A DNA stretch of 64,000 nt, from contig JBBRUX010000007.1 of the NCBI GenBank assembly GCA_038247415.1, positions 1 to 64,000 on the forward strand, read 5' to 3'. Position numbers and translations under genes: made by a program. This DNA is from Chitinivibrionales bacterium (GTDB lineage Bacteria > Fibrobacterota > Chitinivibrionia > Chitinivibrionales > WJKA01). Below, one piece after another: positions 6,408 to 47,939 of this stretch. The notes below the pieces were generated by a model. It did no database searches. It was not told the DNA's origin and saw nothing but the letters and a program-made list of their open reading frames with translations. Each line of letters opens with the position of its first letter. The stretch's first letter is position 1.

Positions 6408-6427
6408 CGGTGGCTTTACATCATTTG

Positions 6428-9958: not shown

Positions 9959-9971
9959 TCTAAACTCCTGG

Positions 9972-12646: not shown

Positions 12647-12653
12647 AGGGCTC

Positions 12654-16200: not shown

Positions 16201-16725
16201 TGGGAGCTTGGGTTATCCGGCTTGCAATCAAAGCCGCATCTAACGCTTGGCGTTAATTCCCGTTTGTTTTATGTACAGCACGATCCAAAAACAGTATATG
16301 GGCAAGTGTTTTCGGCTCTTGACAGATCGCTTCAATTTACGCAGAGCATTCCAATACGCTCAGTGGTAACTGTGTCATTCAAAGAAGCACTAGGGTACGC
16401 AGAACAAAAAACAGAATTCGCAAGCGCATCTGGTTTATATGTGGCAATCGATCCAGAACTTGTTGTGCGTCCTAACGATAAAAGTTCGATAATTGGGTCG
16501 TATACCTTTGCATCAAATGGAGCTCGCGGCATAACCGATTTCAGATTAGCGCGCGGATACGCTTTCGGTTTTACGCAGGCATTCTCGATTCTCGCTAATG
16601 TAGATGTCTCCAAAAACGTCACGCTTACCGGCAGTTACCGAGGCGATTTGCCACCAGAAAACGCTCCTGGGTATCCTACGAATGGAACTCATGTGGTGGC
16701 TTTTGAGGTCAAAGCTTATTTTTAA
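13300..16725 (+). CDS. Large conserved hypothetical outer-membrane protein (1141 aa)
   Basis: Signal-peptide-like N-terminus, amphipathic beta-strand pattern, C-terminal Phe (EVKAYF), DYRVDYEQGFISF motif reminiscent of large FCB-group OM proteins. Confidence 0.6.
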   Translation: MQKFLKKFLSMQQNSYAFSILLILVVYCIPSSGRTVDTVIVGNGTNGPYLLGSDNIDSSSIRVAQGDLGSRIDYLFDPLTNSLIFSIPQDSLKSIPITYQTLLGSLVRTHYRYRYQTLDTATLNTFLRDTTLQHYNADAAENLQISGYKSIGIALGNSGQSNLTQALDVSIFGEIAPQTLLSAHLSDQGSSLDGVTREIGELDMIYITLAHPNFGVTVGDQYARWPSGGLLMGEKKIKGLSVSGKNEFLNGTIFGALSGGVSTVTTIVGRTGLQGPYFVRGNTGEPIVILSGTVNVTLNGKKLIEGEIADYRVDYEQGFISFSPRIPIADKDLISIQYEYKTSNYRRLLAGTTLGGTMPDSTISTQGVLWYESDDANHPLDLEISAADKDSLGLYGTKPWYKVMGIPIRGMKADSVASVNALYAKRDSAGIQIFVYHPSNIRFAPDSTYYQVTFRKITAGKGDYALLRRDCPAASSGVCYDVYEFVGSGLGDYTALSVFPTPARTVNGEVRIRYRPRSFLVADIDVAGQEKSENLFSSRSDASTTAGAGIIVLGAGSRRAQTTGSWAGIEGSVISEGFVRTAQSPSQRKSVWDDTSIAGQQGKSMGMSGYAGSSFGRIILGEVDGGRLYRNNSVATDRLGAYCLYTPLDSLSFSGDFKEFWHKDVPVPSRMQSFTLSTRIGARKIQSIVTLGDEWRVVDTFGGGHFVGSLNIVLPRIGLSQSISAERAMRGKLGYGALVDTGYRVGFEQRFDKNITREWNTSLFASHTVQKNGIGSPAVPTTLIDITSDLSRAALGLTTHQEYAITFERASLFVQEGRYVGAGFGDYTLDTLQALAPYVPKSGGSYSITNREWFDSSAVPTRVRKINASLSYSLDVPDSIISQGILSDLSYKGTYTVSEQVTDSSLSSLTFIPGVASIDTSLSAWLRYGSVSFRQEIIFEPSKSKDVRVLFSVRPFVMAQPLFREHGWELGLSGLQSKPHLTLGVNSRLFYVQHDPKTVYGQVFSALDRSLQFTQSIPIRSVVTVSFKEALGYAEQKTEFASASGLYVAIDPELVVRPNDKSSIIGSYTFASNGARGITDFRLARGYAFGFTQAFSILANVDVSKNVTLTGSYRGDLPPENAPGYPTNGTHVVAFEVKAYF

Positions 16726-23375: not shown

Positions 23376-23679
23376 CGCCATCACTGTTGCCTGCTGCGCA
23401 ACACTTTATTCCTCCTTTTCCTTATAATGCGTGCATTTTTCCGCGTTCATGGGTATATTTTTATTGATGAAATGTAGCTCATGTGCTGGATTTATACTAC
23501 CAATGCAATGTGGTCAAAATATTTTTAAAAGCTTTCTTCACTTTCTTTTTAAAAAACACTATTTTAAGAGACTATGCCTCGATCGAATTGGGATTTGGGG
23601 TTGGTTATTTAAAGGCTTAAATTGAATTCTCTTAAATTTATGTGTGTTAATTTATTTTTTTACCGAAAGGAATGCGCTT

Positions 23680-24888
23680 ATGACTAAGCGATCTTTGATT
23701 GTACAAGGCGCTGTTGTGCTATCGTGTTTTGTGGCGGGATGTGATTTCCCATATAAGCCAGTAGTTCAGACGCAGCCTGGTGTTGTTATAAAACCTGCAG
23801 CTCTCGTTGGCTTGCACCCCATTAATTCTGGGCGCCAAATTTGTAATGCCAACGCTTCAAACGATCCCGTTAATTTTAAAGCATGTATGCTTTTCTTGAA
23901 CCTAATTGGTCCAATGAAATTAAGCTTTGTGGATCCAGTCTGGGCAGCGGATTATGGACCCGATGCAGGAGAGCATGATCGCTTAACTATTGTTGATACG
24001 GGCAATGTTGTACGTTGGTATATGAAAGTTGGGAAAGACTATATTTCTGAAGATGCAATTCAAAAGCCCCGTTGGTCTACCCATCCAGATTTTATTTCTT
24101 TTAATGGCGAAGTCGATGAAGCAAATGGGTATGCAATTCGCATATCTGATAAAAAAGTTTTTAAATTTAATAATGGCAAATTTAATGGAGGATCAGCCGC
24201 CCATATCTGGGTCGATCCAGCGGTTCCTTCTGGAGCAATGTTAAATGTAGATCCCTCTGCTTTTCCCGCAACTGTTACCTATGATTCTGAAACGGGTATG
24301 GCAGATACAACAAGCATTAAGAGCTTTTTTGGAACACGGAACGTTAAAATAGTTTACTCAAAGGTTATCAATACTAAATTCGCACTGTATTATACCGATT
24401 ATTCTGAGGCGACTCCAACAGAACGTGCACTCGCAAAGCCACTTCAAAAGGAAATCTACAATTGTGAGAGCGCTCAAATATCACCTGATGTAAAGGGGGA
24501 TTGGATTATTTATAATTGCTACAAGGGCGTGAATGATCCAGTTGCTTATTATCAAAAGCTTGAGCCGAACTCTAAGCCCGCTGCTTTGAGCAATCTGCCA
24601 CGAAGTGCAGAACCACGATTTTTTAAAGATCCTGAAACAAACGAATTATTTGCAGTATATTGCAATGTTTTTGATGCCATCGATAAAGATTTGGGGCTTG
24701 AAATAGCAGACAATTCATTAGGAACTACCTATATTCGCTCCCTAAACCTTAATAGCGCAGTCACCTTTAATAGATTAAAAGAAGAGCGGGTACTTATTGG
24801 AATGCCATTCCGGGGAGGGATAACAGCAGATGGTGGCTTTTTGTGCACTGGCTATCAGTTCGGTTATATATATCATCTAAGCAATTAA
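23680..24888 (+). CDS. Lipoprotein, possible TolB-like beta-propeller
   Basis: Lipobox VAGC; PRWSTHP and QISPD repeats resembling PD40; AAGGA RBS before ATG 23680. Confidence 0.6.
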   Translation: MTKRSLIVQGAVVLSCFVAGCDFPYKPVVQTQPGVVIKPAALVGLHPINSGRQICNANASNDPVNFKACMLFLNLIGPMKLSFVDPVWAADYGPDAGEHDRLTIVDTGNVVRWYMKVGKDYISEDAIQKPRWSTHPDFISFNGEVDEANGYAIRISDKKVFKFNNGKFNGGSAAHIWVDPAVPSGAMLNVDPSAFPATVTYDSETGMADTTSIKSFFGTRNVKIVYSKVINTKFALYYTDYSEATPTERALAKPLQKEIYNCESAQISPDVKGDWIIYNCYKGVNDPVAYYQKLEPNSKPAALSNLPRSAEPRFFKDPETNELFAVYCNVFDAIDKDLGLEIADNSLGTTYIRSLNLNSAVTFNRLKEERVLIGMPFRGGITADGGFLCTGYQFGYIYHLSN

Positions 24889-24909
24889 ATTTATTAGGAG
24901 CTATAAATC

Positions 24910-26091
24910 ATGAAATTTAATGTTTTACAAAAGAAAGCGCTTGGCGGAATCGGTGCAGCCAGTTTAGTGGTGGCAGGCTTATTCTGTGCTGTTTCGCTTA
25001 TTCCTTCGGCACAAACAAAACTTTCCAATGCTGGTTTAATGCTTACACCATGGGCAACCGTTGGCGGTTGTGGTGCCGGCGGTTCTGGTGGTGGTGGCGG
25101 CGGTGCAAAATGGGTTGGTAAGGGTGTTGCAGGTGGTTTGGTTGATGTTCAGATTATGACAACCCCCTTAAGTGTCGGTCAAAATTTCCATAATTCATCC
25201 GTGTCAACACGGCTGAGCATGAAGCCACGCTGGGATACTCAAATTGGGCTTTCAATTCCTGTTGTGTCAAAAAGTGGTGAAGTTCAGCCAACAACACTTC
25301 TTGATCCAAAATTTTCTGTGACAACAGGTGGTATGGGCGATCTTGGCCTTGATATATCTCAAAGCTTGGGTATGGAAGGTCAGTATTCTGTTGGCCTTGC
25401 AGTAAGCCTACCAACAGCTCAATACAATATTAAGCGTGGGTCAGATAAAGTAAGCACCATTCTGCCTTCTGGTCTTCAAAAAGGATCTGGCCTTTACGGT
25501 GTATCATTGGCGCTTGGGTACACTAAAGACGTAAAAGATGGCATCTGGCTTGTAGATGCAGGGTATAGTCATCCGATGGCGATGCGTTTGTTTACTGGTG
25601 AAAATGAATTCAATAAAACTTGGTTTAAGTATAGCTATGCAGCAGATTCAACATTAAAGGATGATAAACGATTTTTCTATCGTTTTAAGCCTTATGGCGA
25701 GAACGACCTTGGGGATTATACTCCTCCAAGCGTCAGTTTAAGTTGCTATTTTGGCTATAAAGGAGTAGCAAATTATATGCATTCTTGGGGTGTAACTCTT
25801 GGGGCTCCTTTGGGTATAGCGTGGGTTCATGATGAGAGTGTACTTGGAACCGTTGTAAACTATAATCCTCGACCCGATACAGATCATAAAACATGGTCTG
25901 CTACGTTTAACTATGGTATAGAATTCAGCAGTGCAAAGTATCCTCTTTTTGCGGCTGTATCGCTTCCATTTCATGCAAAAAGTGCAGTTGCTGCGGATAA
26001 GAAGGCTCCAGGTTCCGAATTTGCTCCTGATTGGAAAGATTTTGGCCAACAGTGGAGCTTTTTTGTAGGCGTTAAATCAACCATGTTCTAA
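24910..26091 (+). CDS. Hypothetical outer-membrane beta-barrel protein with Gly-rich N-terminal segment
   Basis: Signal/TM segment, GGCGAGGSGGGGGG, alternating beta-strand pattern (GMGDLGLDI, LAVSLPT), terminal Phe; AGGAG RBS. Confidence 0.55.
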   Translation: MKFNVLQKKALGGIGAASLVVAGLFCAVSLIPSAQTKLSNAGLMLTPWATVGGCGAGGSGGGGGGAKWVGKGVAGGLVDVQIMTTPLSVGQNFHNSSVSTRLSMKPRWDTQIGLSIPVVSKSGEVQPTTLLDPKFSVTTGGMGDLGLDISQSLGMEGQYSVGLAVSLPTAQYNIKRGSDKVSTILPSGLQKGSGLYGVSLALGYTKDVKDGIWLVDAGYSHPMAMRLFTGENEFNKTWFKYSYAADSTLKDDKRFFYRFKPYGENDLGDYTPPSVSLSCYFGYKGVANYMHSWGVTLGAPLGIAWVHDESVLGTVVNYNPRPDTDHKTWSATFNYGIEFSSAKYPLFAAVSLPFHAKSAVAADKKAPGSEFAPDWKDFGQQWSFFVGVKSTMF

Positions 26092-26123
26092 CTACTTCTT
26101 TAACTATTATCAATGGAGGTCTC

Positions 26124-26525
26124 ATGAAAAAACGTTTTGGTTTTGCTGTATTGTGTGCTGTTGGTTTGAGTATAGGTCTTATGGCTTCTGGATGCAAGGA
26201 ACCACCACCACCACCACCTTCATGTGATACATGGGTTATAAAAAACCCTATGGCTGGTACAACATTAAAAGTTGGCCAAACTGTTAATATTGAGTGGTGT
26301 GTGCCAGCTTCTGTCGATTCTTTGGGTGCAAAGCGGGTTAATGTTTTGTTGGCAATAGGAAAAAATGTATATCAACTTAATCAAGAGCCCGTCGTCTACC
26401 CAACCAGAAGCTTTTCATTGACAATCGTAGATTCTCTAGTTGGCGATGTTTGCTATCTTAGAGTCAAAGATTATCAGCAACAGAACTTGGTTTCTGAAGA
26501 TTTGCAGATAAAAATCATTCCATAG
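26124..26525 (+). CDS. Small lipoprotein with polyproline linker and Ig-like domain
   Basis: Lipobox ASGC, EPPPPPPS, GQTVNIEW; GGAGG RBS. Confidence 0.7.
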   Translation: MKKRFGFAVLCAVGLSIGLMASGCKEPPPPPPSCDTWVIKNPMAGTTLKVGQTVNIEWCVPASVDSLGAKRVNVLLAIGKNVYQLNQEPVVYPTRSFSLTIVDSLVGDVCYLRVKDYQQQNLVSEDLQIKIIP

Positions 26526-26536
26526 TAAAATCAACC

Positions 26537-27640
26537 ATGCAAGCTCTTCCTCAACACTCCCTCCTCATCCTCGGTGCATCCGGCTTTATCGGATCGCACC
26601 TGGTGGAGCGGTTATTGTCAGAAACGTCTGTTTCTGTTGTGGGGATAGATGTTAATGTGGCAAAGGTGGGGGAGTATCTTGCGGATAGCAGATTTACGTA
26701 TGTTAATCTAGATATTTACGATGCAGAAAAAGTCCGCGCCTTTATCAAAGGTGCGGACGCTGTTGTTTCTTTGGCAGCGCTGTGCAACCCCTCGCTTTAC
26801 AATACAACACCCTTGGCTGTCATCGAATCGAATTTCACCCGGCCTATCGATATTGTTCGTATGTGTGCCGAAGAGAAAAAATGGTTAATACATTATTCTA
26901 CCTGTGAAGTATATGGGAAAACGGTTGCTCATGTGAGCAATGCCGATGTGCAAACGCAGGAAAATACTCTTTTGTCGGAATATTCAACACCGCTTATTAT
27001 GGGTCCTGTTTCTGCGCAACGATGGTGCTATGCAACTGCTAAGCAGTTGCTTGAGCGCACTATTTTTGCGTATGGTTTTGAGCAGGATCTTGCTTATACT
27101 ATAGTCAGACCGTTTAATTTTATTGGCCCTCGCATGGATTATATCCCGGGTATTGACGGAGAAGGGGTACCGCGCGTAATCGCTTGTTTTATGGATGCTC
27201 TTATGAGCGGAACGCCTTTGCAGCTTGTTGATGGTGGCATGAATAAGCGTACCTTTACAGCAATAGATGACGCAATAGATGCTCTGATGCTTATCCTTGC
27301 CAAACCTGCACATGCTCGCAACGAGATTTTCAATATAGCAAATCCTGCAAACGAGATAAGTATCTCGGCACTTGCCGAAAAAATGATTTACGCTTACGAA
27401 AAAGTACGCAGACCAGATATGCCGCTGCCTATGGGCGCTGTGCAGGTATCGTCGGAAGAATTTTATGGTGTTGGCTACGAAGATTCCGATAGACGTTTAG
27501 CAGATATTAAAAATGCACGAATAAAGCTTGGGTGGAATCCCTGCCGTGGACTCGACGAAGCGCTTGCAGAAACAGTTGCGTGGTATGTTAACCATTATGC
27601 CTTGGCAATGACCGAAAAAAAGGCACTTAATGCTAGGTGA
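26537..27640 (+). CDS. UDP-apiose/UDP-xylose synthase-like SDR (UDP-glucuronate decarboxylase family)
   Basis: GASGFIG; LAALCNPSLYNT, STCEVYGKT, QRWCYATAKQL, RPFNFIGPRMDYIPGIDG.GVPRV, EFYGVGYEDSDRR closely follow plant AXS/UAS motifs. Confidence 0.85.
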   Translation: MQALPQHSLLILGASGFIGSHLVERLLSETSVSVVGIDVNVAKVGEYLADSRFTYVNLDIYDAEKVRAFIKGADAVVSLAALCNPSLYNTTPLAVIESNFTRPIDIVRMCAEEKKWLIHYSTCEVYGKTVAHVSNADVQTQENTLLSEYSTPLIMGPVSAQRWCYATAKQLLERTIFAYGFEQDLAYTIVRPFNFIGPRMDYIPGIDGEGVPRVIACFMDALMSGTPLQLVDGGMNKRTFTAIDDAIDALMLILAKPAHARNEIFNIANPANEISISALAEKMIYAYEKVRRPDMPLPMGAVQVSSEEFYGVGYEDSDRRLADIKNARIKLGWNPCRGLDEALAETVAWYVNHYALAMTEKKALNAR

Positions 27641-28355
27641 TCTTGGTATTGTCATGCCGGCTTATAATGCCGGTAAGCTGATACCAGGGGTTTTAGCCCG
27701 GATACCCGAAACACTCTGGAAGCAGATTCGCTTTTTTGTAATTGTAAATGACGGGTCGAGCGATGATACCGCCGCGATTATCGAAGAATGTAAAGTGGGA
27801 CGCGACTGTATACACACGGTTCATTTTCATGAAAATCGCGGATACGGTGCTGCAGTGCGTGAAGGGTTGTTAAAATGCCGCGTTCACGATTGTTTTGCAG
27901 TGATATGTTTGCATGCAGATGGTCAGTATGCGCCCGAAGCTCTTGTTGATCTGCTTAGAGGAATTCGCGAAGATACGTACGATATTGTTCAAGGGTCCCG
28001 TATAGCATCGGGTACTGCCTTGTCGGGTGGGATGCCACTCTATAAATTTGTTGCGAATAGAATTTTAACGTTCTTTGAAAATTGTGTTTACGGTTTACGA
28101 TTAACCGATTATCATAGTGGATATCTTGCCTATTCACGTAAAGCGCTCGAAATACTTCCCTTCGAAAGATTTAGTTCAACGTTTGAATTTGATGTTGAAG
28201 TAATTGCTACGGCGCGTTCGCATGGTTTACGTATAGGCGAAGTTCCCGTCCCAACACGGTATGCAGGAGAAAAATCCCATGTGCCTTCGATTCAATACGG
28301 TTTTAGGGTTCTGGGTGTTATGGTTAAATACCTTCGTGGGAAGTACAAACCATGA
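27630..28355 (+). CDS. GT2 glycosyltransferase, DPM1/ArnC-like polyprenol-phosphate type
   Basis: MPAYN, VNDGSSD, NRGYGAA, HADGQY, GSR, LTDYHSGY. Confidence 0.88.
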   Translation: MLGDLGIVMPAYNAGKLIPGVLARIPETLWKQIRFFVIVNDGSSDDTAAIIEECKVGRDCIHTVHFHENRGYGAAVREGLLKCRVHDCFAVICLHADGQYAPEALVDLLRGIREDTYDIVQGSRIASGTALSGGMPLYKFVANRILTFFENCVYGLRLTDYHSGYLAYSRKALEILPFERFSSTFEFDVEVIATARSHGLRIGEVPVPTRYAGEKSHVPSIQYGFRVLGVMVKYLRGKYKP

Positions 28356-29257
28356 TCCTTGTAACGGGTGGTTGCGGAATTATGGGGAGCGCATTGGTAA
28401 AGCTTCTGTGCAATAAGGGTCATGCGGTACGAGTTGTTACGCTTGCGGGTGATCCTTTTGTAACGCGGTTGGATGGTCTTACGGTGGATATTCGTTTTGC
28501 AGATATTAGCAATAAAGAGTCGCTTTCGGGAATTTGCAATGGGATAACTCTGGTGTATCACCTTGCGGCTATCATCTTAACAAAAAACGAATTGCTCTTT
28601 GAAAGTATAAATGCGCAGGGAACACGAAATGTTGTGGATATTGCGATTCAATCAGGTGTAAGTCGTTTTGTGTATGTTTCATCTGCTTCCGTAACGTATA
28701 CGTTTCCAACAGCCTACGCACGTTCAAAAATTGCAGGCGAGGAAGCCGTGGTGAAAAGTGGCTTGACCTATACCATAATAAGGCCAACGCTTGTGTACGA
28801 TGATCGCGGAGGTGAGGAATTTAATCGGTTTCTGGCGTATTTGCTAAAGTATCCAATTGTTCCTTTTATTGGTTCTGGCAAAGCACTCAAGCGACCTGTG
28901 CATGTCAATGAGATTATTAATGGGCTTGCTGCAGTAGCGACCTCGGAACATGCGAATAATAAAGTGTATAATTTTTCTGGCGCGCAAGCTCTTTCAATTA
29001 AGCAATTTGCTCGCCTCTGTTTACAGGTAGCAGGCTCTGGAAATAAACCAATTGTATCGTTGCCCGTTTTTGTGTGCAGATTGATTGCGTGCGTGATGCA
29101 GCTGGTATATAAGAATCCTCCACTTTCCAAGCAAATGATTGCGGGGATAATTCAGGATGCCGACTTAGATCCCGGAAGTGCTATCAAAGATTGTGGTTAT
29201 TCGCCCACCCGCGTAACTGATATGCTTCCACACTGTTTTCCACGGAAAATATCGTAA
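28352..29257 (+). CDS. NAD-dependent epimerase/dehydratase family SDR
   Basis: ILVTGGCGIMG, HLAA, YARSK (YxxxK), RPTLVY; ATGA overlap with the GT2 gene. Confidence 0.85.
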   Translation: MILVTGGCGIMGSALVKLLCNKGHAVRVVTLAGDPFVTRLDGLTVDIRFADISNKESLSGICNGITLVYHLAAIILTKNELLFESINAQGTRNVVDIAIQSGVSRFVYVSSASVTYTFPTAYARSKIAGEEAVVKSGLTYTIIRPTLVYDDRGGEEFNRFLAYLLKYPIVPFIGSGKALKRPVHVNEIINGLAAVATSEHANNKVYNFSGAQALSIKQFARLCLQVAGSGNKPIVSLPVFVCRLIACVMQLVYKNPPLSKQMIAGIIQDADLDPGSAIKDCGYSPTRVTDMLPHCFPRKIS

Positions 29258-29319
29258 TAAAATGATTTTTTGCTGTTGTAGTGTTGTAGTAACTTTTTCA
29301 ATTTTTCAGGGGGTTGTGT

Positions 29320-29808
29320 ATGATTAAATCCAGGTTAATTCTTGGAGTCGCCATGCTCACAGGGGCCTGTGTGTTTTCGGCGTTTGCCGCAGATGCAGCA
29401 GCAAAGCCAGCAGCCAAGACGGCGGTAAAGCCTGCCGCTGCAAAAGTGGCCGATACGCTTGTTATCGAGGGCCGGGTGCTTGAGATTCCAGGGAAGTTTC
29501 CACCAAACGACTTGTACAACTATGTGTACATCATGAAGTATCGAGTTATTAAAGTTGTCAAAGGAGTATATGCCGAAAAGGATATTCTTGTTGGGCACTA
29601 TAATCCGCTCATTCCACGGTCTCAGGTTAAAGACGCAAAAATGAAAAAGTATGTTGCAGGTAATGTAGAAAAGTTTGAAGTTGGTGCCAAGCACAAACTC
29701 ACTCTTATCAAGTCTATTGGCACAGTATGGCAGGATGCTATCGAAGATGAATACTTTGATGCAACTGGAGACAAATATTTTGCACTTAAAGCGGATATCG
29801 CTCAGTAA
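29320..29808 (+). CDS. Exported hypothetical protein
   Basis: Signal peptide ending AFA, Ala/Lys/Pro linker, compact beta domain; in line with the MBOAT gene. Confidence 0.7.
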   Translation: MIKSRLILGVAMLTGACVFSAFAADAAAKPAAKTAVKPAAAKVADTLVIEGRVLEIPGKFPPNDLYNYVYIMKYRVIKVVKGVYAEKDILVGHYNPLIPRSQVKDAKMKKYVAGNVEKFEVGAKHKLTLIKSIGTVWQDAIEDEYFDATGDKYFALKADIAQ

Positions 29809-29827
29809 CCCGAAAGGATGATGTCAA

Positions 29828-31252
29828 ATGGTTTTTTCGTCACACATATTCATCTTCTACTTCATGCCGATTTTCTTCTTGATTTATTATCTCTTGCCGT
29901 TTAATTGGAAAGGGTTCTATCTCAAGAACAGTTTTATCACCATATCAAGTTATATTTTCTACGGCTGGCTTGTTCCTTGGTTTGTTGTGCTTATGCTTTT
30001 GTCTACTACGTGGGATTATTTTTGCGGCTTAGTTATCACCAAGCCGGGACAAGTCCAGTGGAAACGAAAAGCTGCGCTGCTTACAGCAATTATTGGTGAT
30101 ATGGGACTTCTTGTATTTTACAAGTACTACATGTTCACAATGGAAAATGTCAATGCCATGCTTGGGCTTTTGGGCATGGGTCCCGATATGTTCCCTATTA
30201 TGAATGTTATGCTTCCATCTGGTATTTCTTTTTATACCTTTGTTGCGCTATCCTATACGATCGACCTTTATCGTGGCGATGCAAAACAATCTCGAAATTT
30301 TCCAACATTCAGTTGCTTTATTGGATTGTTCCCGCATCTTATTGCTGGTCCTATTATCCGGTATCAATCGGTTGCCGATCAGCTTGGCGAACGTACTCAT
30401 ACTATTGATAAGTTTACCAGTGGTGCTGCAATATTTTGTTTGGGTATGGCCAAGAAAATTATTTTGGCAAACTCTGCAGGTCAAATTGCCGATGCTGTGT
30501 TTACAGCAGATAACCCGGGTGTTCTCAATGCATGGTGGGGTATTTTAGGGTATCACTTCCAGATTTATTTCGATTTTTGCGGCTACTCAGATATGGCCGT
30601 AGGGTTGGCTCGCATGCTGGGTATTGAGTTTATTAAAAACTTCAATGCACCGTATATGGCAACAAATATTACGGTGTTCTGGCGAAGGTGGCACATATCG
30701 CTTTCTGCGTTTATTCGGGATTATCTCTATATCCCACTCGGTGGAAACCGGTTTGGCACAACGCGTACCTATTTCAATTTGGTGCTTACCTTTTTCCTCT
30801 GCGGTTTGTGGCATGGTGCTAAAATGACGTTTGTCATTTGGGGTGTGTATCAGGGTGTGTTCCTTATCCTTGAACGTCTCAGCGGCAAGAAGACCGTGTA
30901 TGGTTTTCTTCCAAACTTCATGCAAATTATAATAACGAATATTATAGTGATGTTTGGATGGGTCATGTTCCGGGCTCCTTCTATCGATCAGGCATTAGCC
31001 TATTGGGGGTCAATGGTTGGAATGGTTCAAGCCTCGGTAGCAGCGCCTATTTTGTCGTCTGAAATCTTTTCGCCACGGCATATTTTTGAAATCGCAGTGT
31101 GCGCATTGGCAACATTTCAGCCTATACAGGCGCATGATTGGGTTAAAAATCTGTCAAAGCCAAAACTTGTGGTTTGCAGTCTATTGTTTTTGTATTCAAT
31201 CATTGTGATGTTTACTCAGACATATAACCCATTCCTTTACTTTCAGTTCTAA
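29828..31252 (+). CDS. MBOAT O-acyltransferase, AlgI/PatA type
   Basis: MVFSS, FYKY, GISFYTF, FPHLIAGPI, QIYFDFCGYSDMA, FWRRWHISLS, GLWHGA, PFLYFQF. Confidence 0.95.
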   Translation: MVFSSHIFIFYFMPIFFLIYYLLPFNWKGFYLKNSFITISSYIFYGWLVPWFVVLMLLSTTWDYFCGLVITKPGQVQWKRKAALLTAIIGDMGLLVFYKYYMFTMENVNAMLGLLGMGPDMFPIMNVMLPSGISFYTFVALSYTIDLYRGDAKQSRNFPTFSCFIGLFPHLIAGPIIRYQSVADQLGERTHTIDKFTSGAAIFCLGMAKKIILANSAGQIADAVFTADNPGVLNAWWGILGYHFQIYFDFCGYSDMAVGLARMLGIEFIKNFNAPYMATNITVFWRRWHISLSAFIRDYLYIPLGGNRFGTTRTYFNLVLTFFLCGLWHGAKMTFVIWGVYQGVFLILERLSGKKTVYGFLPNFMQIIITNIIVMFGWVMFRAPSIDQALAYWGSMVGMVQASVAAPILSSEIFSPRHIFEIAVCALATFQPIQAHDWVKNLSKPKLVVCSLLFLYSIIVMFTQTYNPFLYFQF

Positions 31253-31269
31253 CATAAGGATTTTTCGTC

Positions 31270-32937
31270 ATGGAAAGAAAAGCTCAAATAATATTCGTAG
31301 TGTTCTTTTGCTTCGTAATGGGCTTTGTGCCTATTGCGCAAGCAGTATACGAACTTAAAAAGATCAAGCGCATCCAGGCATTCGAAATGATCGAAGATGC
31401 GACCGTTGTTCCGTATCAGCGAGCTAAAACAATGGCTGCTGCAGCCCAGCGTCTTGACGTACAAGCGCAGGCACTCTCTGCTGCGGTAACAAAAGCTGCT
31501 GGCGATTCGGTGTTTGATGGAAGTGCCTTTTCTACGCAAACCGACGAAATCGGGTTCGCACTGGGTGAACTCCAAAAGAGTGCTGAAACGATCAATCGTT
31601 ATGTAAAAGAAAAAGCAACTACTCCAGAGATGCATGAGATTATAGTTCTTCAAAAAGGACTCGATTCCCTATCGAAGGCAATCTCAAATGCTTCAACAGC
31701 ACAAGAGGCTCTAGCAGTATCAACTGCATATGAAGTGCGTGCAAAGGCACTGGTTGCAAAACATCCCAAGCCAACCACAGCATCGGCATTTCCTCTTATA
31801 GTAAAGAATTTGCCAAATATGTTTTGGGATGCGGTGTATTTGCGTCCCTACGAAAAGGAAATGGAAAATACTTCTATTTTCGCAGTTGCCGCGCGGCCGG
31901 TCATGCTTTTTACGCGCTATGCAATTTTTCAGGATTTGGGTGATAAGGCTCTTTTAGGACAGAAAAACTGGTTCTTTTATAAGCCAGACGTTCAGTTCCT
32001 TTCTAAGCCTTATATCCTTGCTGCGCGCAATTATTTGCCAGAACACAGCAACGTTGCGGATCCTAACCTCTTATCTGTTAAAGAGGAGCCAATTAAAAAG
32101 ATCGCCCTCTTCCGCGATGAATTAAAGAGACTGGGAATAGATCTTATCGTTGTTGTTCTTCCTACTAAGGCGTCAGTGTATCCAGAAGTGCTTAATCCTA
32201 AAATTTCAAAGGATCTGTCGGGGAAATTGAGCCACTCTACAAAATCAATTGCAGAATTACGTGCGATGGGTGTAGAATGCGTCGATCTCTTTTCCGAATT
32301 TGCAAAGGAACGCCAGAACGATGAACGTGCGGGAGACTCGCTTTATTTGGCAAAAGACACTCACTGGCGTGGGCGCGGTGTGCGTTGCGCTGCTAAGGCT
32401 GTTGCAGATCGAATAAAGCAGTATTCTTGGTATACTCCCGGAACAACTACTTTTGAGATCGATACCATTATGGTAGACCGTGTTGGAGATATTGGATCTA
32501 TGACAAAAATCACTGATGTCAAGTTTCATGACCTTCGCACAATTTTCCCCGTTGAAGCTACTAAATGCTATCAGGTTTACAAAGTTGAAAATGATTCAGC
32601 AGGTAATCAGATTTCCCGTGCTTTGTATAGAGATGATTATGCTCGCTCCCAAGTATTGCTTTTGGGCGATAGCTTCTCGCGTATCTATCAAACAGATGCT
32701 CCTATGAGCGCAGGATGGATTTCTCATATTGCTGCTGAACTTGAGCAACCAATTGCCTCTATCGTTTCGGATGGTGGAGCATCGACACTTGTTCGTGAGA
32801 CACTTGCCCGTAAGGTAAATGTATTACGCAATAAGAAAGTGGTTGTATGGGAATTTGTAGAACGCGATTTCAGATATGGTGCCGAAGGTTGGAAAGATAT
32901 TAAGCTCGATCTGAAGCAGACTGCATCTGCAGAATAA
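31270..32937 (+). CDS. AlgJ/AlgX-type SGNH-like O-acetyltransferase, membrane anchored
   Basis: N-terminal TM, G..NWFFY, PTKASVYPE, KDTHW (DxH) and LLGDSF catalytic motifs, VWEFVER. Confidence 0.85.
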   Translation: MERKAQIIFVVFFCFVMGFVPIAQAVYELKKIKRIQAFEMIEDATVVPYQRAKTMAAAAQRLDVQAQALSAAVTKAAGDSVFDGSAFSTQTDEIGFALGELQKSAETINRYVKEKATTPEMHEIIVLQKGLDSLSKAISNASTAQEALAVSTAYEVRAKALVAKHPKPTTASAFPLIVKNLPNMFWDAVYLRPYEKEMENTSIFAVAARPVMLFTRYAIFQDLGDKALLGQKNWFFYKPDVQFLSKPYILAARNYLPEHSNVADPNLLSVKEEPIKKIALFRDELKRLGIDLIVVVLPTKASVYPEVLNPKISKDLSGKLSHSTKSIAELRAMGVECVDLFSEFAKERQNDERAGDSLYLAKDTHWRGRGVRCAAKAVADRIKQYSWYTPGTTTFEIDTIMVDRVGDIGSMTKITDVKFHDLRTIFPVEATKCYQVYKVENDSAGNQISRALYRDDYARSQVLLLGDSFSRIYQTDAPMSAGWISHIAAELEQPIASIVSDGGASTLVRETLARKVNVLRNKKVVVWEFVERDFRYGAEGWKDIKLDLKQTASAE

Positions 32938-33027
32938 CAGCTCTTTTGTTCTTCACATGCTTTGTGCATGTGGAAAATGATGCGTAAGAGGTTTCGTATG
33001 ATATATTTTCTGAACATCTGAATAACT

Positions 33028-33067
33028 GCGCGCAATCTTTTTAAAAGATTGCGCGCTTTGCTTTTTT
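33028..33067 (+). terminator. Hairpin with T tail inside the operon (terminator or attenuator)
   Basis: GCGCGCAATCTTTT / AAAAGATTGCGCGC inverted repeat at 33028-33056 followed by TTTGCTTTTTT. Confidence 0.5.
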
Positions 33068-33083
33068 ACCAAAAGGAGTAACT

Positions 33084-35090
33084 ATGGGACTTCATCGGAA
33101 TCTGGTTCTTGGCATTGGTATATATGCAACCGTTGCAACTGCAGCTGTTACACCGGTGTATACTGAACTTGCACCTAAATTTATTCTTAACAAGTCGCGA
33201 GCAACGGTTCGCGAAATTGCTAAGCCAACTATGGCAAATCTCGATTTTACTGCATACGATAAAAATCCTGTGCGCCTCGATTTTAAAGCTCAAAAGCCAA
33301 AGATGCCTGCTGCAAAGGTTACCTTTGCAGACCTAGGCTACGATGGCGCACTTTCTGATGTTGTTGACAGCGTTGGAAAAACACCTCTTACCGAAGCAGA
33401 ACTCTCTAATCCTCTTGCATGGAAGCCATTAAGTGAAAGGCTCTGGAAAGCAATAAAAAATCCATTCTTTGCCGAAGTTACCGGCAAGATCGAAGGTAAG
33501 AAATGGGCAGATCCTGCGATACCAAAACCGTATCAGGAAATTGCAGTTGCCTATGTGCATAAAACAACCGCCGGTGTTGAACTTTGGGTACGCATCGATT
33601 TTCCTGCTTGGTCAAAATTTTTGGCGCCCCGTGGCGCCGATGAAAATAAGGACGGTTTTTGCGAAGTGTACGGAAAGCTTTCTCTTGATAAACTTGATAA
33701 AGAAGTATGGGCAAAAGCTCTTGCTTATATCGAACAAGATTATTGTGTAAAGGTTCTTTCTAAAGACGAAATTACCGATTGGGTTACAATTCTTGCATCG
33801 TATTGGTATCCTGCTTTTAACACAGATATCATTGATATGACCAATGAAACTGCATGGCCCATAAAAGATACCGATAAAGACGTAGCTAAAGCACTTAAAG
33901 GTTTTAGCGTTAAGAATCCAACTGCAGTTGTAAAGGGAAATCCTTTTGGCAAGCTCATGTATAATGTGTATGTTGTTAAGGAACAAGATGGAGCAGTTGC
34001 CCCTGTTGTCCACGAGCAAGCCGCAGCTGCGCCCGTTGCTGCAATTATTGACAAAAGGGCAGATACCGCAGTTTCTGCGAATATGAAGGCTAATTCTACG
34101 CGCCTTGCTGCCGAAATTAAGCCATTTATAACCTATGAGGCTTGGGCAAAACAAAATGCTGCCGGGCTTGGTAATCTTAAAACCTTTTTAGGAACTATTC
34201 CAGCAGAGCAGATGGGTTTTGAAGGTAAAGACAATTGGGTATTCTTTCGTAAATCATGTGACTATATTTTGGGTGGCGATCTGAATGCTCAGGCAAAAGA
34301 TAAAAATCCCATACCTTCGCTTGTTGAGCTTAAAAAGTTCCTTGCATCAAAGGGTGTAAATCTTTTGTTTGTTCCCGTACCCAATAAAGAAGAAGTTTAC
34401 TACGATAAGCTTCCTTGTACCACGATCCCCGACGCTGCGGCAGTGTATAATCCTTATTCTCGCAAGTTTATCAAGGATGCTCAGGATGCTGGTATCGAAG
34501 TAATTGACTTGCTTCCACTGTTTCTTGCAGCAAAAGCAAAAGACAAGGACTCAAAAGAAAAGGTGTATCAGTTACATGATACCCATTGGACAGATAGGGG
34601 ATTGGAGATTGCTGCAACAGCTATTGCAGACCGCGTAAAACAGTATGGCTGGTATAGTTCCATTACGCCTGCTAAATATTCGATTGTCGATACCACTTTT
34701 GATCGTCAGGGTGATATTGTTGATAAATTGCCCGATGCGCTTAAGTCTAAATATGCACCTGTCAATCTTAAGGGTGCAATGGTCCGCGCTGCCGATGGAA
34801 AGCCCTATAAGGGTGCTGCAACAGACCCAATCATTCTAATGGGTGATAGTTTTACGGGCGTTTTTGAATCGGTCGACTGCAAGAGCGCTGGCGTTGGTGC
34901 TCATATTGCAGCTAACTCTGGTGTTGGTGTTGATATCATCACCAGCTGGGGCGGTGGCCCTGGTGTTCGCAACAAGATGCTTCGTGCTCGTTCTACAGCT
35001 CTCGGGCAGAAGCGCCTGGTTATTTACATGATGGTAGCTCGCGATTTGTATAATTATTCTCAGTCGTGGGAACCGCTTAAGCCAGAATAG
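33084..35090 (+). CDS. AlgX/AlgJ-type SGNH-like O-acetyltransferase with large uncharacterised N-terminal domain
   Basis: Signal peptide; GKDNWVFF, PVPNKEEVY, HDTHW, LMGDSF motifs in the C-terminal half. Confidence 0.83.
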   Translation: MGLHRNLVLGIGIYATVATAAVTPVYTELAPKFILNKSRATVREIAKPTMANLDFTAYDKNPVRLDFKAQKPKMPAAKVTFADLGYDGALSDVVDSVGKTPLTEAELSNPLAWKPLSERLWKAIKNPFFAEVTGKIEGKKWADPAIPKPYQEIAVAYVHKTTAGVELWVRIDFPAWSKFLAPRGADENKDGFCEVYGKLSLDKLDKEVWAKALAYIEQDYCVKVLSKDEITDWVTILASYWYPAFNTDIIDMTNETAWPIKDTDKDVAKALKGFSVKNPTAVVKGNPFGKLMYNVYVVKEQDGAVAPVVHEQAAAAPVAAIIDKRADTAVSANMKANSTRLAAEIKPFITYEAWAKQNAAGLGNLKTFLGTIPAEQMGFEGKDNWVFFRKSCDYILGGDLNAQAKDKNPIPSLVELKKFLASKGVNLLFVPVPNKEEVYYDKLPCTTIPDAAAVYNPYSRKFIKDAQDAGIEVIDLLPLFLAAKAKDKDSKEKVYQLHDTHWTDRGLEIAATAIADRVKQYGWYSSITPAKYSIVDTTFDRQGDIVDKLPDALKSKYAPVNLKGAMVRAADGKPYKGAATDPIILMGDSFTGVFESVDCKSAGVGAHIAANSGVGVDIITSWGGGPGVRNKMLRARSTALGQKRLVIYMMVARDLYNYSQSWEPLKPE

Positions 35091-35132
35091 TTTTTTGTTT
35101 TTTTTTGGTTTGAGTTTGAAATGTTTTTGTAA

Positions 35133-35171
35133 AGGGTGTCCACTAGAATTTCTCGTGGGCACCTTTTTTTT
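35133..35171 (+). terminator. Rho-independent terminator
   Basis: AGGGTGTCCAC / GTGGGCACCT stem (with G-U pairs) followed by a T run, just after the cluster's last gene. Confidence 0.7.
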
Positions 35172-35408
35172 CGCCCTTGGCTGGTTCTGGTATGTCAGTT
35201 CTAATGGATATCCAATTTTTCCCCACTGCTCGCCCTTCCTCAAAAATAAGCATAGCGTACAATACTTCGGCAGCTTGGCATCCTCAATATCTGGCAAAAA
35301 GATGCGTCTGGATATACATTAAATAATGCGTTATCTAATGGTTTAAGAATTTTGGCGCTTCATACAACGTACTACCACTTAAAACCGCCTTGAAAAGAGG
35401 TTCAAACT

Positions 35409-36170
35409 ATGTTTGTTCAACGCAGTGCTTCCTTAAAGACTGGGATACTTGTATGTTCTATGCTCTCGTCGCTGTTTGCCTACGAATCATCGCTTAATAA
35501 TCTTGTTGTTCCGTCAACAATTGAATCTCCGAGCCTAGAAGCTACATTTGAGCATCGATTTGGGCGTGCTCTTGGCATGTCGGCACATGGTGGCAGCATT
35601 ATGGGAGGCGCAAATATCGGGCTTGGTATGCGAGGAGAAATCTGGAAGGGGATTGGTGCGACCTTTTACTATACCTATCGGAATAATGAATTTGATGGAG
35701 CTGTTACCTATTCTCAAAGTGTAGATTTTTTGCAATTAGATATATTGGGTTCGATACATGCATTTACGTATCAAAAAAGTGAATGGAACAATTTCAGGGC
35801 AACAAACGCTGCGTATGATATTGCGCTTCAATCGAAACCATTGCTCTTTGATCATCTCGTCCTCAATGCAGGCATGAATTATGATGGCTATAATGCTCAT
35901 GTAGGATTAGGTCTTGGAACTACAGTACAAATTATAGAAAAAGTTGCGCTTGTGGGAGAACTTTTCCCATTAATTCCAAACGCCTCCAATGTAAATATTG
36001 GGTCAAAACCATGTTTTTCGGCAGGTATTAAATACGATACCTACGGACATCATTTTAAATTGTCGGTTGCAAATTCCACAGAGCTTGGTCAACGGCATGC
36101 AATGCTTGGCACGAATTCCAAAAATGTGTACTTCGGTTTTTCGATTCAACGACACGTTTCTTTTGAGTAA
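35409..36170 (+). CDS. Outer-membrane beta-barrel protein (DUF5777-like)
   Basis: Signal peptide, FEHRFG, GGANIGLG, TYGHHFKL...N, YFGFSIQR. Confidence 0.65.
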   Translation: MFVQRSASLKTGILVCSMLSSLFAYESSLNNLVVPSTIESPSLEATFEHRFGRALGMSAHGGSIMGGANIGLGMRGEIWKGIGATFYYTYRNNEFDGAVTYSQSVDFLQLDILGSIHAFTYQKSEWNNFRATNAAYDIALQSKPLLFDHLVLNAGMNYDGYNAHVGLGLGTTVQIIEKVALVGELFPLIPNASNVNIGSKPCFSAGIKYDTYGHHFKLSVANSTELGQRHAMLGTNSKNVYFGFSIQRHVSFE

Positions 36171-42549: not shown

Positions 42550-42596
42550 TTGCTATAAGAACTCATAGTTTTCAAAATAAATACAAGGAGAATATA

Positions 42597-43772: not shown

Positions 43773-43773
43773 T

Positions 43774-47916: not shown

Positions 47917-47939
47917 TAGTGTGCAGATTTGGCTGAGAG

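What the first reader, a model, noticed from the sequence alone, without database searches (positions are those of the whole stretch)
26537..27640. Plant-type UDP-apiose/UDP-xylose synthase signature in a bacterial SDR
Seen: LAALCNP and STCEVYGK carry two cysteines at the positions that, from my recall of plant AXS/UAS (LAAICTP, STCEVYGK), support the ring contraction to apiose. ArnA and UXS enzymes have other residues there. The distinctive PRMDYIPGIDG.GVPRV and EFYG.GY.DSD segments also match plant AXS. Bacterial UDP-apiose synthases are known only from a few taxa. One in a probable Fibrobacterota genome is notable.
Basis: partly seen in the sequence, partly recalled or inferred. Interest (0 to 1): 0.75.

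Follow-up and report, generated by a model that had tools for sequence, protein, structure and literature searches.

The report
Probable bacterial UDP-apiose synthase gene cassette
This gene very probably encodes an enzyme that makes the activated form of apiose, a branched sugar best known from plant cell walls, and it sits in a conserved gene set that appears to load the sugar onto a membrane lipid carrier.

Summary
The ORF at 26537-27640 (+, 367 aa) is real and carries the motifs described. [quoted passage not shown] Its best solved relative is Arabidopsis UAXS1 (324 bits, TM 0.92-0.94), ahead of ArnA (about 220 bits). A careful tree places it with the characterised Geminicoccus roseus UAS and a plant AXS (bootstrap 100).

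- Only the first cysteine (Cys83, equivalent to UAXS Cys100) discriminates. It is present in 239 of 239 homologues and is Ala in ArnA/U4kpxs. The second (Cys123, equivalent to Cys140) is Ser in the characterised bacterial enzyme.
- The family is not rare. Hundreds of Fibrobacterota-type homologues exist. JGI already names them UAS, while NCBI labels them U4kpxs through a lax cut-off.

The new result is context. The gene is translationally coupled to an ArnC-like GT2 and an atypical SDR. These sit with an MBOAT, two AlgX-like proteins and a small secreted protein. The same set recurs in a Myxococcota genome, which suggests a lipid-linked apiose or xylose donor. Product chemistry remains untested.

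The parts
26537..27640 (+). UAS/UAXS-family extended SDR (367 aa), the finding itself. Probable UDP-apiose/UDP-xylose synthase.
   Evidence: ORF. Pfam Epimerase at 9.5e-42. Best PDB sequence match 6h0n at 323.8 bits against ArnA at about 220. Model pLDDT 94.9, best fold match 6h0n/6h0p at TM 0.92-0.94. UAS clade supported 100/99.
26783..26785 (+). Codon of Cys83, equivalent to UAXS Cys100, the ring-opening proton-transfer residue.
   Evidence: Mapped by hand on the alignment. Role of Cys100 as stated in PMC12820599. Cys in 239 of 239 homologues and invariant in alignment A2. Ala in the ArnA/U4kpxs rows.
26903..26905 (+). Codon of Cys123, equivalent to UAXS Cys140. This position varies between Cys and Ser.
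   Evidence: Cys in 74 of 119 query-type and 8 of 120 GrUAS-type homologues, Ser in the rest, including the characterised GrUAS.
27630..28355 (+). GT2 glycosyltransferase (241 aa) of the polyprenyl-phosphate-sugar synthase type (ArnC/GtrB/DPMS-like), without C-terminal membrane helices. Its ATG overlaps the UAS stop by 11 nt.
   Evidence: Pfam Glycos_transf_2. NCBIfam best matches are PpgS, AglJ, dolichyl-phosphate hexose transferase and ArnC, all below their cut-offs. Model pLDDT 93.2. Foldseek ranks 1-22 shown are ArnC, GtrB and DPMS at TM 0.62-0.76. Junction sequence.
28352..29257 (+). Atypical or extended SDR (301 aa, HpnA/NDUFA9-like) with a GxxGxxG motif and YxxxK. ATGA overlap with the GT2 stop.
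   Evidence: Orthologues lie next to UAS in L001 (49% identity) and in L002 (41%).
29314..29808 (+). Small secreted protein (164 aa) of no known family, conserved in the cassette.
   Evidence: No Pfam hit. 44% identity over 117 aa to L002 12558-12896. Nearest atlas clusters are hypothetical proteins of Fibrobacterota and Myxococcota, scores 0.96-0.93.
29828..31252 (+). MBOAT membrane-bound O-acyltransferase (AlgI/DltB-like).
   Evidence: Pfam MBOAT at 4.5e-25. DltB model scores 137.9 against a cut-off of 375. 46% identity to L002 2745-4184.
31270..32937 (+). AlgX-type SGNH acyltransferase-like protein 1.
   Evidence: Pfam ALGX at 5.4e-26. L002 counterparts.
33028..33056 (+). Terminator-like hairpin (13-bp stem followed by a T-rich tail). 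Probable end of the transcription unit.
   Evidence: This is a consensus match only.
33084..35090 (+). AlgX-type SGNH acyltransferase-like protein 2, probably a separate transcript.
   Evidence: Pfam ALGX. 38% identity over 657 aa to L002 9644-11575.
23644..26525 (+). Three co-directional upstream genes with 11-32 nt gaps: a 414-aa secreted protein, a 393-aa protein resembling an outer-membrane barrel, and a 133-aa lipoprotein-like protein. They may belong to the same operon, but membership is uncertain.
   Evidence: with no Pfam hits. The 393-aa protein has a weak L002 match (30% over 181 aa, opposite strand). Its nearest atlas clusters are Fibrobacterota 'Transporter' and hypothetical proteins.

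Best explanation
[quoted passage not shown] By analogy with the plant and G. roseus enzymes, tightly bound NAD+ oxidises C4 of UDP-glucuronate. Tyr165 acts as the base and Cys83, with Glu124, relays protons for retro-aldol ring opening. Decarboxylation follows. The open-chain intermediate then re-closes either as a furanose aldehyde, reduced to UDP-apiose, or as the pyranose 4-ketone, reduced to UDP-xylose. Shown here: family membership, conservation of all ten active-site residues, fold and clade. Inferred: the product. The enzyme is the first step of a conserved cassette. The overlapping ArnC/GtrB/DPMS-like GT2 most likely transfers the pentose from UDP to a polyprenyl phosphate. The coupled atypical SDR modifies the nucleotide sugar or the lipid-linked sugar. 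The MBOAT, the two AlgX-like proteins and the 164-aa protein O-acylate the same extracytoplasmic glycan. All of these cassette steps are inferred from homology and gene linkage.
For: Sequence: 6h0n scores 323.8 bits against ArnA at 217-221, PbgP3 (3slg) at 205.5 and human UXS at 76-77. Calibration: the characterised GrUAS gives 345.9, about 211 and 188.7. A genuine Cupriavidus U4kpxs gives 224, 422 and 639. Residues: all ten UAXS signature residues from PMC12820599 Table 3 are present. Cys at the Cys100 position occurs in 119/119 query-type and 120/120 GrUAS-type homologues, and Ala in the ArnA/U4kpxs rows. Fold: model pLDDT 94.9, with 6h0n/6h0p at TM 0.92-0.94, ArnA at 0.86-0.87 and UXS 2b69 at 0.75. 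Tree: in the careful 40-row tree the Cys100 clade (25 rows: query subclade, GrUAS, plant AXS fragment P0273, eukaryote-like P0250, Myxococcota) is supported 100/99. The AU test rejects query subclade plus ArnA/U4kpxs at p = 0.001. Biochemistry of relatives: CeUAS, GrUAS and XpUAS convert UDP-GlcA to UDP-Api and UDP-Xyl, at about 1.7:1 for GrUAS (PMC5607165). Cassette: gene overlaps of 11 nt and 4 nt. GT2 fold matches are ArnC, GtrB and DPMS. 8 of the 11 window genes tested, from 23644 to 36170, have counterparts in Myxococcota locus L002. 31 of 119 query-type UAS hits share an exact contig length with a GT2 hit, against 2 of 119 for GrUAS-type hits.
Against: No assay: UDP-apiose formation is inferred. 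No member of the query's subclade has been characterised, and the subclade is only 45% identical to GrUAS and 43-45% to AtUAXS1. On the larger 54-row set that includes long branches, the AU test did not reject query subclade plus ArnA/U4kpxs (p = 0.074). The rejecting test used a set from which I had dropped 14 rows, and the group was named after a first tree had been seen. NCBIfam's U4kpxs model formally passes the protein (298.1 against a cut-off of 294). A Cys100-bearing relative in Paraburkholderia is fused to a DegT aminotransferase. That hints that some clade members supply a 4-keto-pentose rather than apiose. The adjacent SDR could likewise intercept the UDP-4-keto-xylose intermediate that bUAS enzymes release in detectable amounts. 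For the lipid-carrier step: the GT2 lacks the membrane helices of ArnC/GtrB, soluble GpgS-type GT-A enzymes also match from rank 23, no GT-C transferase or flippase was found in the cassette, and no UDP-glucose dehydrogenase was seen among the window ORFs scanned.
Confidence: 0.7

Rival explanations
1. [quoted passage not shown] On this reading it oxidatively decarboxylates UDP-GlcA without ring contraction.
For: NF008872 scores 298.1 against a cut-off of 294. NCBI names several homologues this way. The neighbouring GT2 is ArnC-like, so the pair resembles ArnA-ArnC. AU p = 0.074 on the 54-row set.
Against: A genuine U4kpxs scores 693.9 on NF008872, while the characterised apiose-forming GrUAS scores 276.7, so a score near 294 does not discriminate. 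The query has Cys, not Ala, at the Cys100 position and carries the UAS-type loop motifs. It is 37-38% identical to ArnA/U4kpxs, against 45% to GrUAS. Careful tree support 100/99 and AU p = 0.001. There is no aminotransferase, formyltransferase or deformylase in the cassette.
Confidence: 0.1
2. It is a true UAS-fold enzyme, but the cassette uses a different product. That could be UDP-xylose, or a UDP-4-keto-xylose intermediate that the coupled SDR reduces to another pentose such as an L-arabinose configuration. Apiose would then be a minor or unused by-product.
For: UAS enzymes always co-produce UDP-xylose, and bUAS enzymes release detectable UDP-4-keto-xylose. In X. pisi a GT2 next to UAS consumes UDP-xylose, not UDP-apiose (PMC6193724). 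A catalytically intact SDR is conserved next to UAS in L001, L002 and the window. A relative is fused to an aminotransferase.
Against: Cys at the ring-opening position is invariant in 239 of 239 homologues. That argues for selection on the apiose-specific chemistry, since UXS-type enzymes make UDP-xylose without it.
Confidence: 0.2

Closest known systems
Arabidopsis thaliana UDP-apiose/UDP-xylose synthase UAXS1/AXS1 (PDB 6H0N, 6H0P)
   Same: Best sequence and fold match (323.8 bits; TM 0.92-0.94). All ten signature residues are shared, including both cysteines. The loop and C-terminal motifs are the same.
   Different: 43-45% identity. The plant enzyme has a 6-residue and a 2-residue insertion that the query lacks. 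The query's subclade is not specifically sister to the plant subclade, because branching within the UAS clade is unresolved.
Characterised bacterial UAS: GrUAS, XpUAS and CeUAS (PMC5607165)
   Same: Same Cys100-bearing clade. The score profile against AXS1, ArnA and U4kpxs is like that of GrUAS. Identity to AtUAXS1 falls in the same range, 43-49% for the bUAS enzymes.
   Different: Only 45% identical to GrUAS and in a separate subclade supported 98/94. GrUAS has Ser at the Cys140 position. GrUAS-type genes show no linkage to the ArnC-like GT2 (2 of 119 contig-length matches). The paper reports no conserved operon around the bUAS genes.
RsU4kpxs / NF008872 and the ArnA dehydrogenase domain
   Same: Same extended-SDR UDP-GlcA decarboxylase superfamily. 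Eight of the ten signature residues are shared. The gene partner is ArnC-like.
   Different: Ala and Ser replace the two cysteines. 37-38% identity. A different clade. No formyltransferase domain or ArnB/ArnD partners.
Xanthomonas pisi apiose operon: XpUAS, XpApiT (GT90) and XpXylT (GT2) (PMC6193724)
   Same: A bacterial UAS in an operon with glycosyltransferase(s) that consume its products.
   Different: No GT90/CAP10 protein here. The GT2 here is of the ArnC/GtrB/DPMS type (PF00535), whereas XpXylT carries pfam13704. The SDR, MBOAT and AlgX-like genes are additional.
Arn pathway (ArnA-ArnC-ArnT) for lipid A modification with L-Ara4N
   Same: A UDP-GlcA decarboxylase of the same superfamily is coupled to an ArnC-like polyprenyl-phosphate glycosyltransferase.
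   Different: No aminotransferase, formyltransferase, deformylase, flippase or GT-C transferase in the cassette. The decarboxylase is of the UAS type.
Alginate O-acetylation set AlgI/AlgJ/AlgF/AlgX (recalled, not from a call)
   Same: An MBOAT together with AlgX-type SGNH proteins and a small periplasmic protein.
   Different: No alginate synthesis genes were seen. The set is linked here to a nucleotide-sugar and lipid-carrier module.

Membership tests
[quoted passage not shown] | Extended SDR fold with an N-terminal GxxGxxG NAD+ site | tested here: met
   G13, G16 and G19 are invariant. Pfam Epimerase. Model pLDDT 94.9.
[quoted passage not shown] | Catalytic triad Thr139/Tyr185/Lys189 and decarboxylase residues Tyr105, Glu141, Arg182, Asn214 and Arg341 | tested here: met
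   Query T122, Y165, K169, Y88, E124, R162, N194 and R320. Each is conserved in 239 of 239 homologues.
[quoted passage not shown] | Cys at the Cys100 position (proton transfer and ring opening), which is Ala in ArnA and UXS | tested here: met
   Query Cys83. Cys in 239 of 239 homologues. Ala in the ArnA/U4kpxs rows.
[quoted passage not shown] | Cys at the Cys140 position (the plant state) | tested here: met
   Query Cys123. This is not family-defining, because the characterised GrUAS and 112 of 120 GrUAS-type homologues have Ser.
[quoted passage not shown] | Closer to characterised UAS than to ArnA, U4kpxs or UXS in sequence and structure | tested here: met
   323.8 bits against about 220, 205 and 77. 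TM 0.92-0.94 against 0.86-0.87 and 0.75. Calibrated with GrUAS and a true U4kpxs.
[quoted passage not shown] | Falls in the clade that holds the characterised plant and bacterial UAS | tested here: met
   Careful tree 100/99 and AU p = 0.001. On the 54-row set, SH-aLRT 99 but AU p = 0.074. Full-length AtUAXS1 could not be included, so P0273 (C-terminal half, 450.9 bits to 6h0n) and P0250 (487.5 bits) stood in.
[quoted passage not shown] | Converts UDP-GlcA to UDP-apiose plus UDP-xylose | not testable with these tools
   Needs an enzyme assay, with NMR or LC-MS as in PMC5607165.
[quoted passage not shown] | Score above the curated cut-off and in the range of true members | tested here: inconclusive
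   298.1 against a cut-off of 294. A true member scores 693.9 and the characterised GrUAS scores 276.7.
[quoted passage not shown] | Ala at the Cys100 position, and membership of the ArnA/U4kpxs clade | tested here: not met
   Cys83. A separate clade at 100/99.
ArnA | N-terminal formyltransferase domain fused to the dehydrogenase domain, and a score above the NF005998 cut-off | tested here: not met
   367 aa with no Formyl_trans domain. 269 against a cut-off of 777.
UDP-xylose synthase (UXS) | Close similarity to UXS, with Ala/Ser at the two positions | tested here: not met
   76-77 bits to human UXS. TM 0.75 at rank 43. Residues.
Polyprenyl-phosphate glycosyltransferase (ArnC/GtrB/DPMS type), for the neighbouring GT2 | GT-A catalytic domain most similar to members of this group | tested here: met
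   The listed Foldseek ranks 1-22 are ArnC, GtrB and DPMS (E 4e-13 to 1e-10, TM 0.62-0.76). NCBIfam best hits are PpgS, AglJ, Dol-P hexose transferase and ArnC, all below their cut-offs.
Polyprenyl-phosphate glycosyltransferase (ArnC/GtrB/DPMS type), for the neighbouring GT2 | C-terminal transmembrane helices that anchor the enzyme | tested here: not met
   241 aa, against 301-355 residues for the matched chains. The model ends after a helix at 220-235. From recall, some members (PpgS, eukaryotic DPM1) also lack them.
Polyprenyl-phosphate glycosyltransferase (ArnC/GtrB/DPMS type), for the neighbouring GT2 | Transfers sugar to a polyprenyl phosphate | not testable with these tools
   Needs a membrane or C55-P assay.

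The most novel reading that the evidence does not exclude
The cassette makes a polyprenyl-phosphate-linked apiose. The labile UDP-apiose would be captured at once by the translationally coupled ArnC-like GT2. The lipid-linked branched pentose would then serve outside the cytoplasm to decorate an envelope glycan or lipid, which the linked MBOAT and AlgX-like proteins also O-acylate. This would be a first lipid-linked apiose donor and a first envelope role for apiose in bacteria. It would be shared by Fibrobacterota and Myxococcota, and most current annotation labels the synthase as U4kpxs.
Probability: 0.25. Interest if true: 0.75.

Novelty: new variant of a known kind. Interest (0 to 1): 0.5.

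Why it matters
Apiose was long thought to be plant-specific. Only three bacterial UDP-apiose synthases have been characterised, and the glycans they feed are still unidentified (PMC5607165, PMC6193724).

If this reading is right, it shows three things. First, a large uncharacterised subclade of probable UAS enzymes exists in Fibrobacterota-type and Myxococcota genomes. Second, NCBI's U4kpxs model (NF008872) probably over-annotates them, because its cut-off lies just above the score of a proven apiose synthase. Third, these enzymes sit in a conserved cassette that gives a concrete, testable route from UDP-apiose to an envelope structure through a lipid carrier.

That route would make two questions experimentally approachable: what bacteria do with apiose, and how a very unstable nucleotide sugar is used. 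If the enzyme makes only UDP-xylose, the result is an ordinary envelope-glycan locus.

Tried and rejected
- **UAS-GT2 complex prediction:** no verdict (score 0.00). It is not evidence either way.
- **Promoter scan:** uninformative, with 31 sites against 28 expected.
- **Genome-contig scan:** 24 stretches matched a pattern and 2 were relatives, both Myxococcota. The window's own lineage was not found and no further scan was allowed.
- **`listing of cluster members`:** switched off, so the representatives have no names. I recognised the plant-like ones by a loop insert and by PDB scores instead.
- **Savino et al. 2019 (Nature Catalysis), the primary source for the roles of Cys100 and Cys140:** not held. 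I rely on its summary in PMC12820599.
- **Full-length AtUAXS1 in the trees:** not possible, because it is not a stored sequence.
- **Fusion partners of UAS-like domains** (esterase, second SDR, GT4, aminotransferase): too varied to point to one pathway.
- **An apparent AlgX-SDR fusion in L002 (ORF 4228-6534):** rejected. The AlgX-like match lies in another reading frame (ORF 4253-5584), so these are two adjacent genes.
- **L009 ArnA row:** mis-trimmed, giving gaps. It was re-cut.
- **First AU test:** p = 0.074, not significant. I kept it in the report.
- **A GT-C transferase, a flippase or a UDP-glucose dehydrogenase in the window:** none recognised.
- **Literature:** no paper in the library holds both 'apiose' and 'Fibrobacter'. 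'apiose' with 'undecaprenyl' gave one general review. 'bUAS' with 'apiose' gave 4 papers, of which only the two PLoS One papers are relevant.
Full report
**The observation**

One search lists an ORF at exactly 26537..27640 on the + strand (ATG start, 367 aa). It is an extended SDR: Pfam Epimerase at 9.5e-42. The protein collection holds the window's own protein as a 345-aa form covering 94% of the ORF (P0001). If the missing 22 residues are N-terminal, that form would lose the GxxGxxG motif (G13, G16 and G19, invariant). I therefore take the 367-aa ORF as correct.

**What it resembles**

Against all PDB sequences (59 distinct sequences matched), the scores were:
- Arabidopsis UDP-apiose/UDP-xylose synthase 6h0n: 323.8 bits, E = 1.2e-95
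- ArnA entries: 217-221 bits
- Burkholderia PbgP3 (3slg): 205.5 bits
- human UXS: 76-77 bits

I calibrated this with two controls. The G. roseus enzyme P0141 was found and is biochemically characterised in PMC5607165. It gives 345.9 bits to 6h0n, about 211 to ArnA and 188.7 to 3slg. [quoted passage not shown] The query behaves like the apiose synthase.

An AlphaFold model built on a 41-sequence alignment has pLDDT 94.9. It matches 6h0n/6h0p best (TM 0.92-0.94, 43-45% identity). ArnA follows at 0.86-0.87 and human UXS at rank 43 with 0.75.

**The annotation conflict**

NCBIfam NF008872 (U4kpxs) passes the query at 298.1 bits against a cut-off of 294. NCBI labels homologues from Chitinivibrionales, Fibrobacteres and Fibrobacter MAGs accordingly, while JGI calls many of the same clusters 'UDP-apiose/xylose synthase'. 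On that model the true Cupriavidus member scores 693.9. The proven apiose synthase GrUAS scores 276.7 and the candidate YpUAS 273.0. The cut-off therefore lies within the score range of UAS-clade proteins, and the NCBI name is probably an over-annotation.

**Active-site residues**

Table 3 of PMC12820599 (read as passages) gives these residues:

| Enzyme | Shared signature residues | The two discriminating positions |
|---|---|---|
| UAXS | Lys189, Tyr185, Thr139, Tyr105, Glu141, Arg182, Arg341, Asn214 | Cys100, Cys140 |
| ArnA | the aligned equivalents of all eight (Table 3) | Ala393, Ser433 |
| human UXS | the aligned equivalents of all eight (Table 3) | Ala79, Ser119 |

The same paper describes Cys100 as a key residue for substrate proton transfer and ring opening. 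Counting along the alignment, the query has all ten: K169, Y165, T122, Y88, E124, R162, R320, N194, C83 and C123.

Across all retrieved homologues:
- The Cys100 position is Cys in 119 of 119 query-type proteins and 120 of 120 GrUAS-type proteins.
- The Cys140 position is Cys in 74 of 119 and 8 of 120 respectively, and Ser in the rest. The characterised GrUAS has Ser.

So the first cysteine discriminates. The second is not needed for apiose synthesis in bacteria. The query does share the double-cysteine state of the plant enzyme.

**Phylogeny**

Anchors came from several sources:
- the plasmid collection (131 records): Alloyangia pacifica YpUAS, Paraburkholderia, Halomarina and Cupriavidus
- E. 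coli K-12 ArnA
- two Myxococcota loci
- the exhaustive representative search (12749 proteins at E<=1e-3, 1964 at <=1e-10, 136 at <=1e-30)

Two representatives stand in for the plant lineage. P0273 residues 148-379 score 450.9 bits to 6h0n over 232 residues, and its N-terminal half is garbled. P0250 residues 259-627 score 487.5 bits.

Results:
- A quick 62-row tree put the query-type clade as sister to the GrUAS-type clade (SH-aLRT 94), apart from ArnA/U4kpxs (98). 17 rows had been dropped for run time.
- A quick 54-row tree gave a Cys100 clade of 32 rows at SH-aLRT 99. On that set, an AU test of 'query subclade plus ArnA/U4kpxs' gave delta lnL 30.8 and p = 0.074, which is not rejected.
- I then removed 14 long-branch, compositionally odd or redundant rows (listed). 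The careful tree supports the Cys100 clade (25 rows) at ultrafast bootstrap 100 and SH-aLRT 99. Support for the subclades is: query 98/94, GrUAS 98/94, plant/eukaryote-like 100/95, Myxococcota 100/99. The AU test then rejects the alternative (delta lnL 45.2, p = 0.001).

Both AU results stand in this report. The group was defined after a first tree had been seen. Branching among subclades is unresolved, so nothing can be said about a plant or bacterial origin. A Halomarina-type group lies between the UAS clade and ArnA/U4kpxs. It has Ala or Val at the Cys100 position in 8 of its 9 rows.

**How it probably works**

In the plant enzyme, NAD+-dependent oxidation at C4 is coupled to retro-aldol opening of the C2-C3 bond, followed by decarboxylation. 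The open-chain intermediate equilibrates by aldol chemistry and leaves by NADH reduction as either UDP-apiose or UDP-xylose (PMC5324594, abstract and passages; PMC7984243, passages).

The three bacterial enzymes tested make both products. GrUAS gives about 1.7:1, is a dimer, releases detectable UDP-4-keto-xylose, and its UDP-apiose decays to a cyclic phosphate (PMC5607165, section 8). I infer the same chemistry for the query because every residue named for it is conserved. That is inference, not demonstration.

**Context**

The GT2 start codon overlaps the UAS stop by 11 nt. The next SDR overlaps the GT2 stop in an ATGA. A 164-aa secreted protein, an MBOAT and an AlgX-like gene follow at gaps of 17-56 nt. 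Then come a terminator-like hairpin (33028-33056) and a second AlgX-like gene.

The GT2 model (pLDDT 93.2) matches Salmonella ArnC, GtrB and dolichyl-phosphate mannose synthase in all of the listed ranks 1-22 (TM 0.62-0.76). Soluble GpgS enzymes follow from rank 23. The protein is 60-110 residues shorter than those chains and lacks their membrane helices.

The Myxococcota locus L002 has counterparts for 8 of the 11 window genes tested. On one strand it carries:
- MBOAT (46% identity)
- an AlgX-like gene
- the SDR (41%)
- UAS (46%)
- the GT2 (45%, overlapping the UAS stop)
- a second AlgX-like gene (38% over its full length)
- the 164-aa protein (44%)

It also has a weak match to the outer-membrane-like gene on the opposite strand. 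L001 keeps the SDR (49%) directly upstream of UAS.

As an indirect survey, 31 of 119 query-type UAS clusters share an exact 'longest contig' length with one of 119 GT2 homologues (28 of the 68 with contigs of at least 5 kb). Only 2 of 119 GrUAS-type clusters do. Only the best 120 of each list were visible, so this is a lower bound. It is not a direct view of adjacency.

The pairing of a UDP-GlcA decarboxylase with an ArnC-like enzyme recalls the Arn pathway. The aminotransferase, formyltransferase, deformylase, flippase and GT-C steps are all missing.

**Cautions**

- No member of the query's subclade has been assayed.
- A Cys100-bearing relative in Paraburkholderia is fused to a DegT aminotransferase (820 aa). 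The conserved SDR beside UAS could likewise intercept a 4-keto intermediate. The sugar actually used could therefore be xylose or another pentose.
- The acceptor, the transferase that would use a lipid-linked donor, and a UDP-glucose dehydrogenase were not found among the window ORFs scanned.

**Novelty**

As an enzyme, this is a new member of the bacterial UAS family in a phylum where none has been studied. The library has no paper with both 'apiose' and 'Fibrobacter'. Only the 2017 and 2018 PLoS One papers deal with bacterial UAS.

The family is not rare in sequence data, and one pipeline already names it correctly. The cassette that couples it to an ArnC-like GT2 and an O-acyltransferase set, shared by Fibrobacterota and Myxococcota, matches no system I could find described. 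'apiose' with 'undecaprenyl' gave one general review. Supplementary files, the primary UAXS structure paper, metagenome contigs and cluster names could not be consulted.

Noticed in passing
window 26537-27640, and NCBIfam NF008872: The curated cut-off of NF008872 (294 bits) sits just above the score of the experimentally proven apiose synthase GrUAS (276.7), while true U4kpxs members score about 694. Query-type UAS homologues (298-320 bits) are therefore named U4kpxs in NCBI MAG annotations.
   Followed up: yes
L004 5890-8352 (Paraburkholderia sp. PREW-6R plasmid): An 820-aa ORF fuses a Cys100-bearing UAS-like domain (46% identical to the query, inside the GrUAS subclade) to a DegT/ArnB-type aminotransferase. 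This suggests an amino-pentose pathway built on a UAS-type enzyme.
   Followed up: partly
L006 4974-6050 (Halomarina plasmid), and representatives P0258, P0262, P0263, P0265, P0269, P0272, P0287, P0288: An intermediate group lies between UAS and ArnA/U4kpxs. It has Ala or Val at the Cys100 position in 8 of 9 rows, often with Cys at the Cys140 position. Its function is unknown. The haloarchaeal member sits in a glycosylation gene cluster.
   Followed up: partly
window 27630-28355: In the GT2 family the motif aligned where DPM1-type enzymes have DxD (recalled) reads H-A-D-G-Q. H95, D97, G98 and Q99 are invariant in 32 of 32 sequences.
   Followed up: no
window 60828-61730: Strong match (256.9 bits, cut-off 50) to TIGR02147 'Fsuc_second'. 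From recall this is a paralogous family of Fibrobacter succinogenes, which supports a Fibrobacterota origin.
   Followed up: no
window 7277-12730 (- strand): Type VI secretion genes TssF and TssG and a ClpB/ClpV-type AAA+ ATPase.
   Followed up: no
window 51832-60662 (- strand): A second glycan locus. It holds a glucose-1-phosphate cytidylyltransferase-like gene (295.4 against a cut-off of 300.25), CDP-glucose 4,6-dehydratase, another SDR, a TPR protein, a cellulose-synthase-like GT2, a GH26-like protein and two proteins without Pfam hits. It looks like a CDP-deoxyhexose exopolysaccharide cluster.
   Followed up: no
window 47131-48968: A pair of MbnP and a di-haem cytochrome c peroxidase (MbnH-like), next to an RND efflux system at 41290-46881.
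   Followed up: no
window 13300-16725: A 1141-aa ORF with no Pfam match, upstream of an aromatic amino acid ammonia-lyase gene at 16731-18329.
   Followed up: no
representatives P0242, P0244, P0343: Other fused forms of UAS-like or related SDR domains: with a BD-FAE/esterase domain (625 aa), with a Polysacc_synt_2 SDR (746 aa) and with a GT4 glycosyltransferase (774 aa).
   Followed up: no
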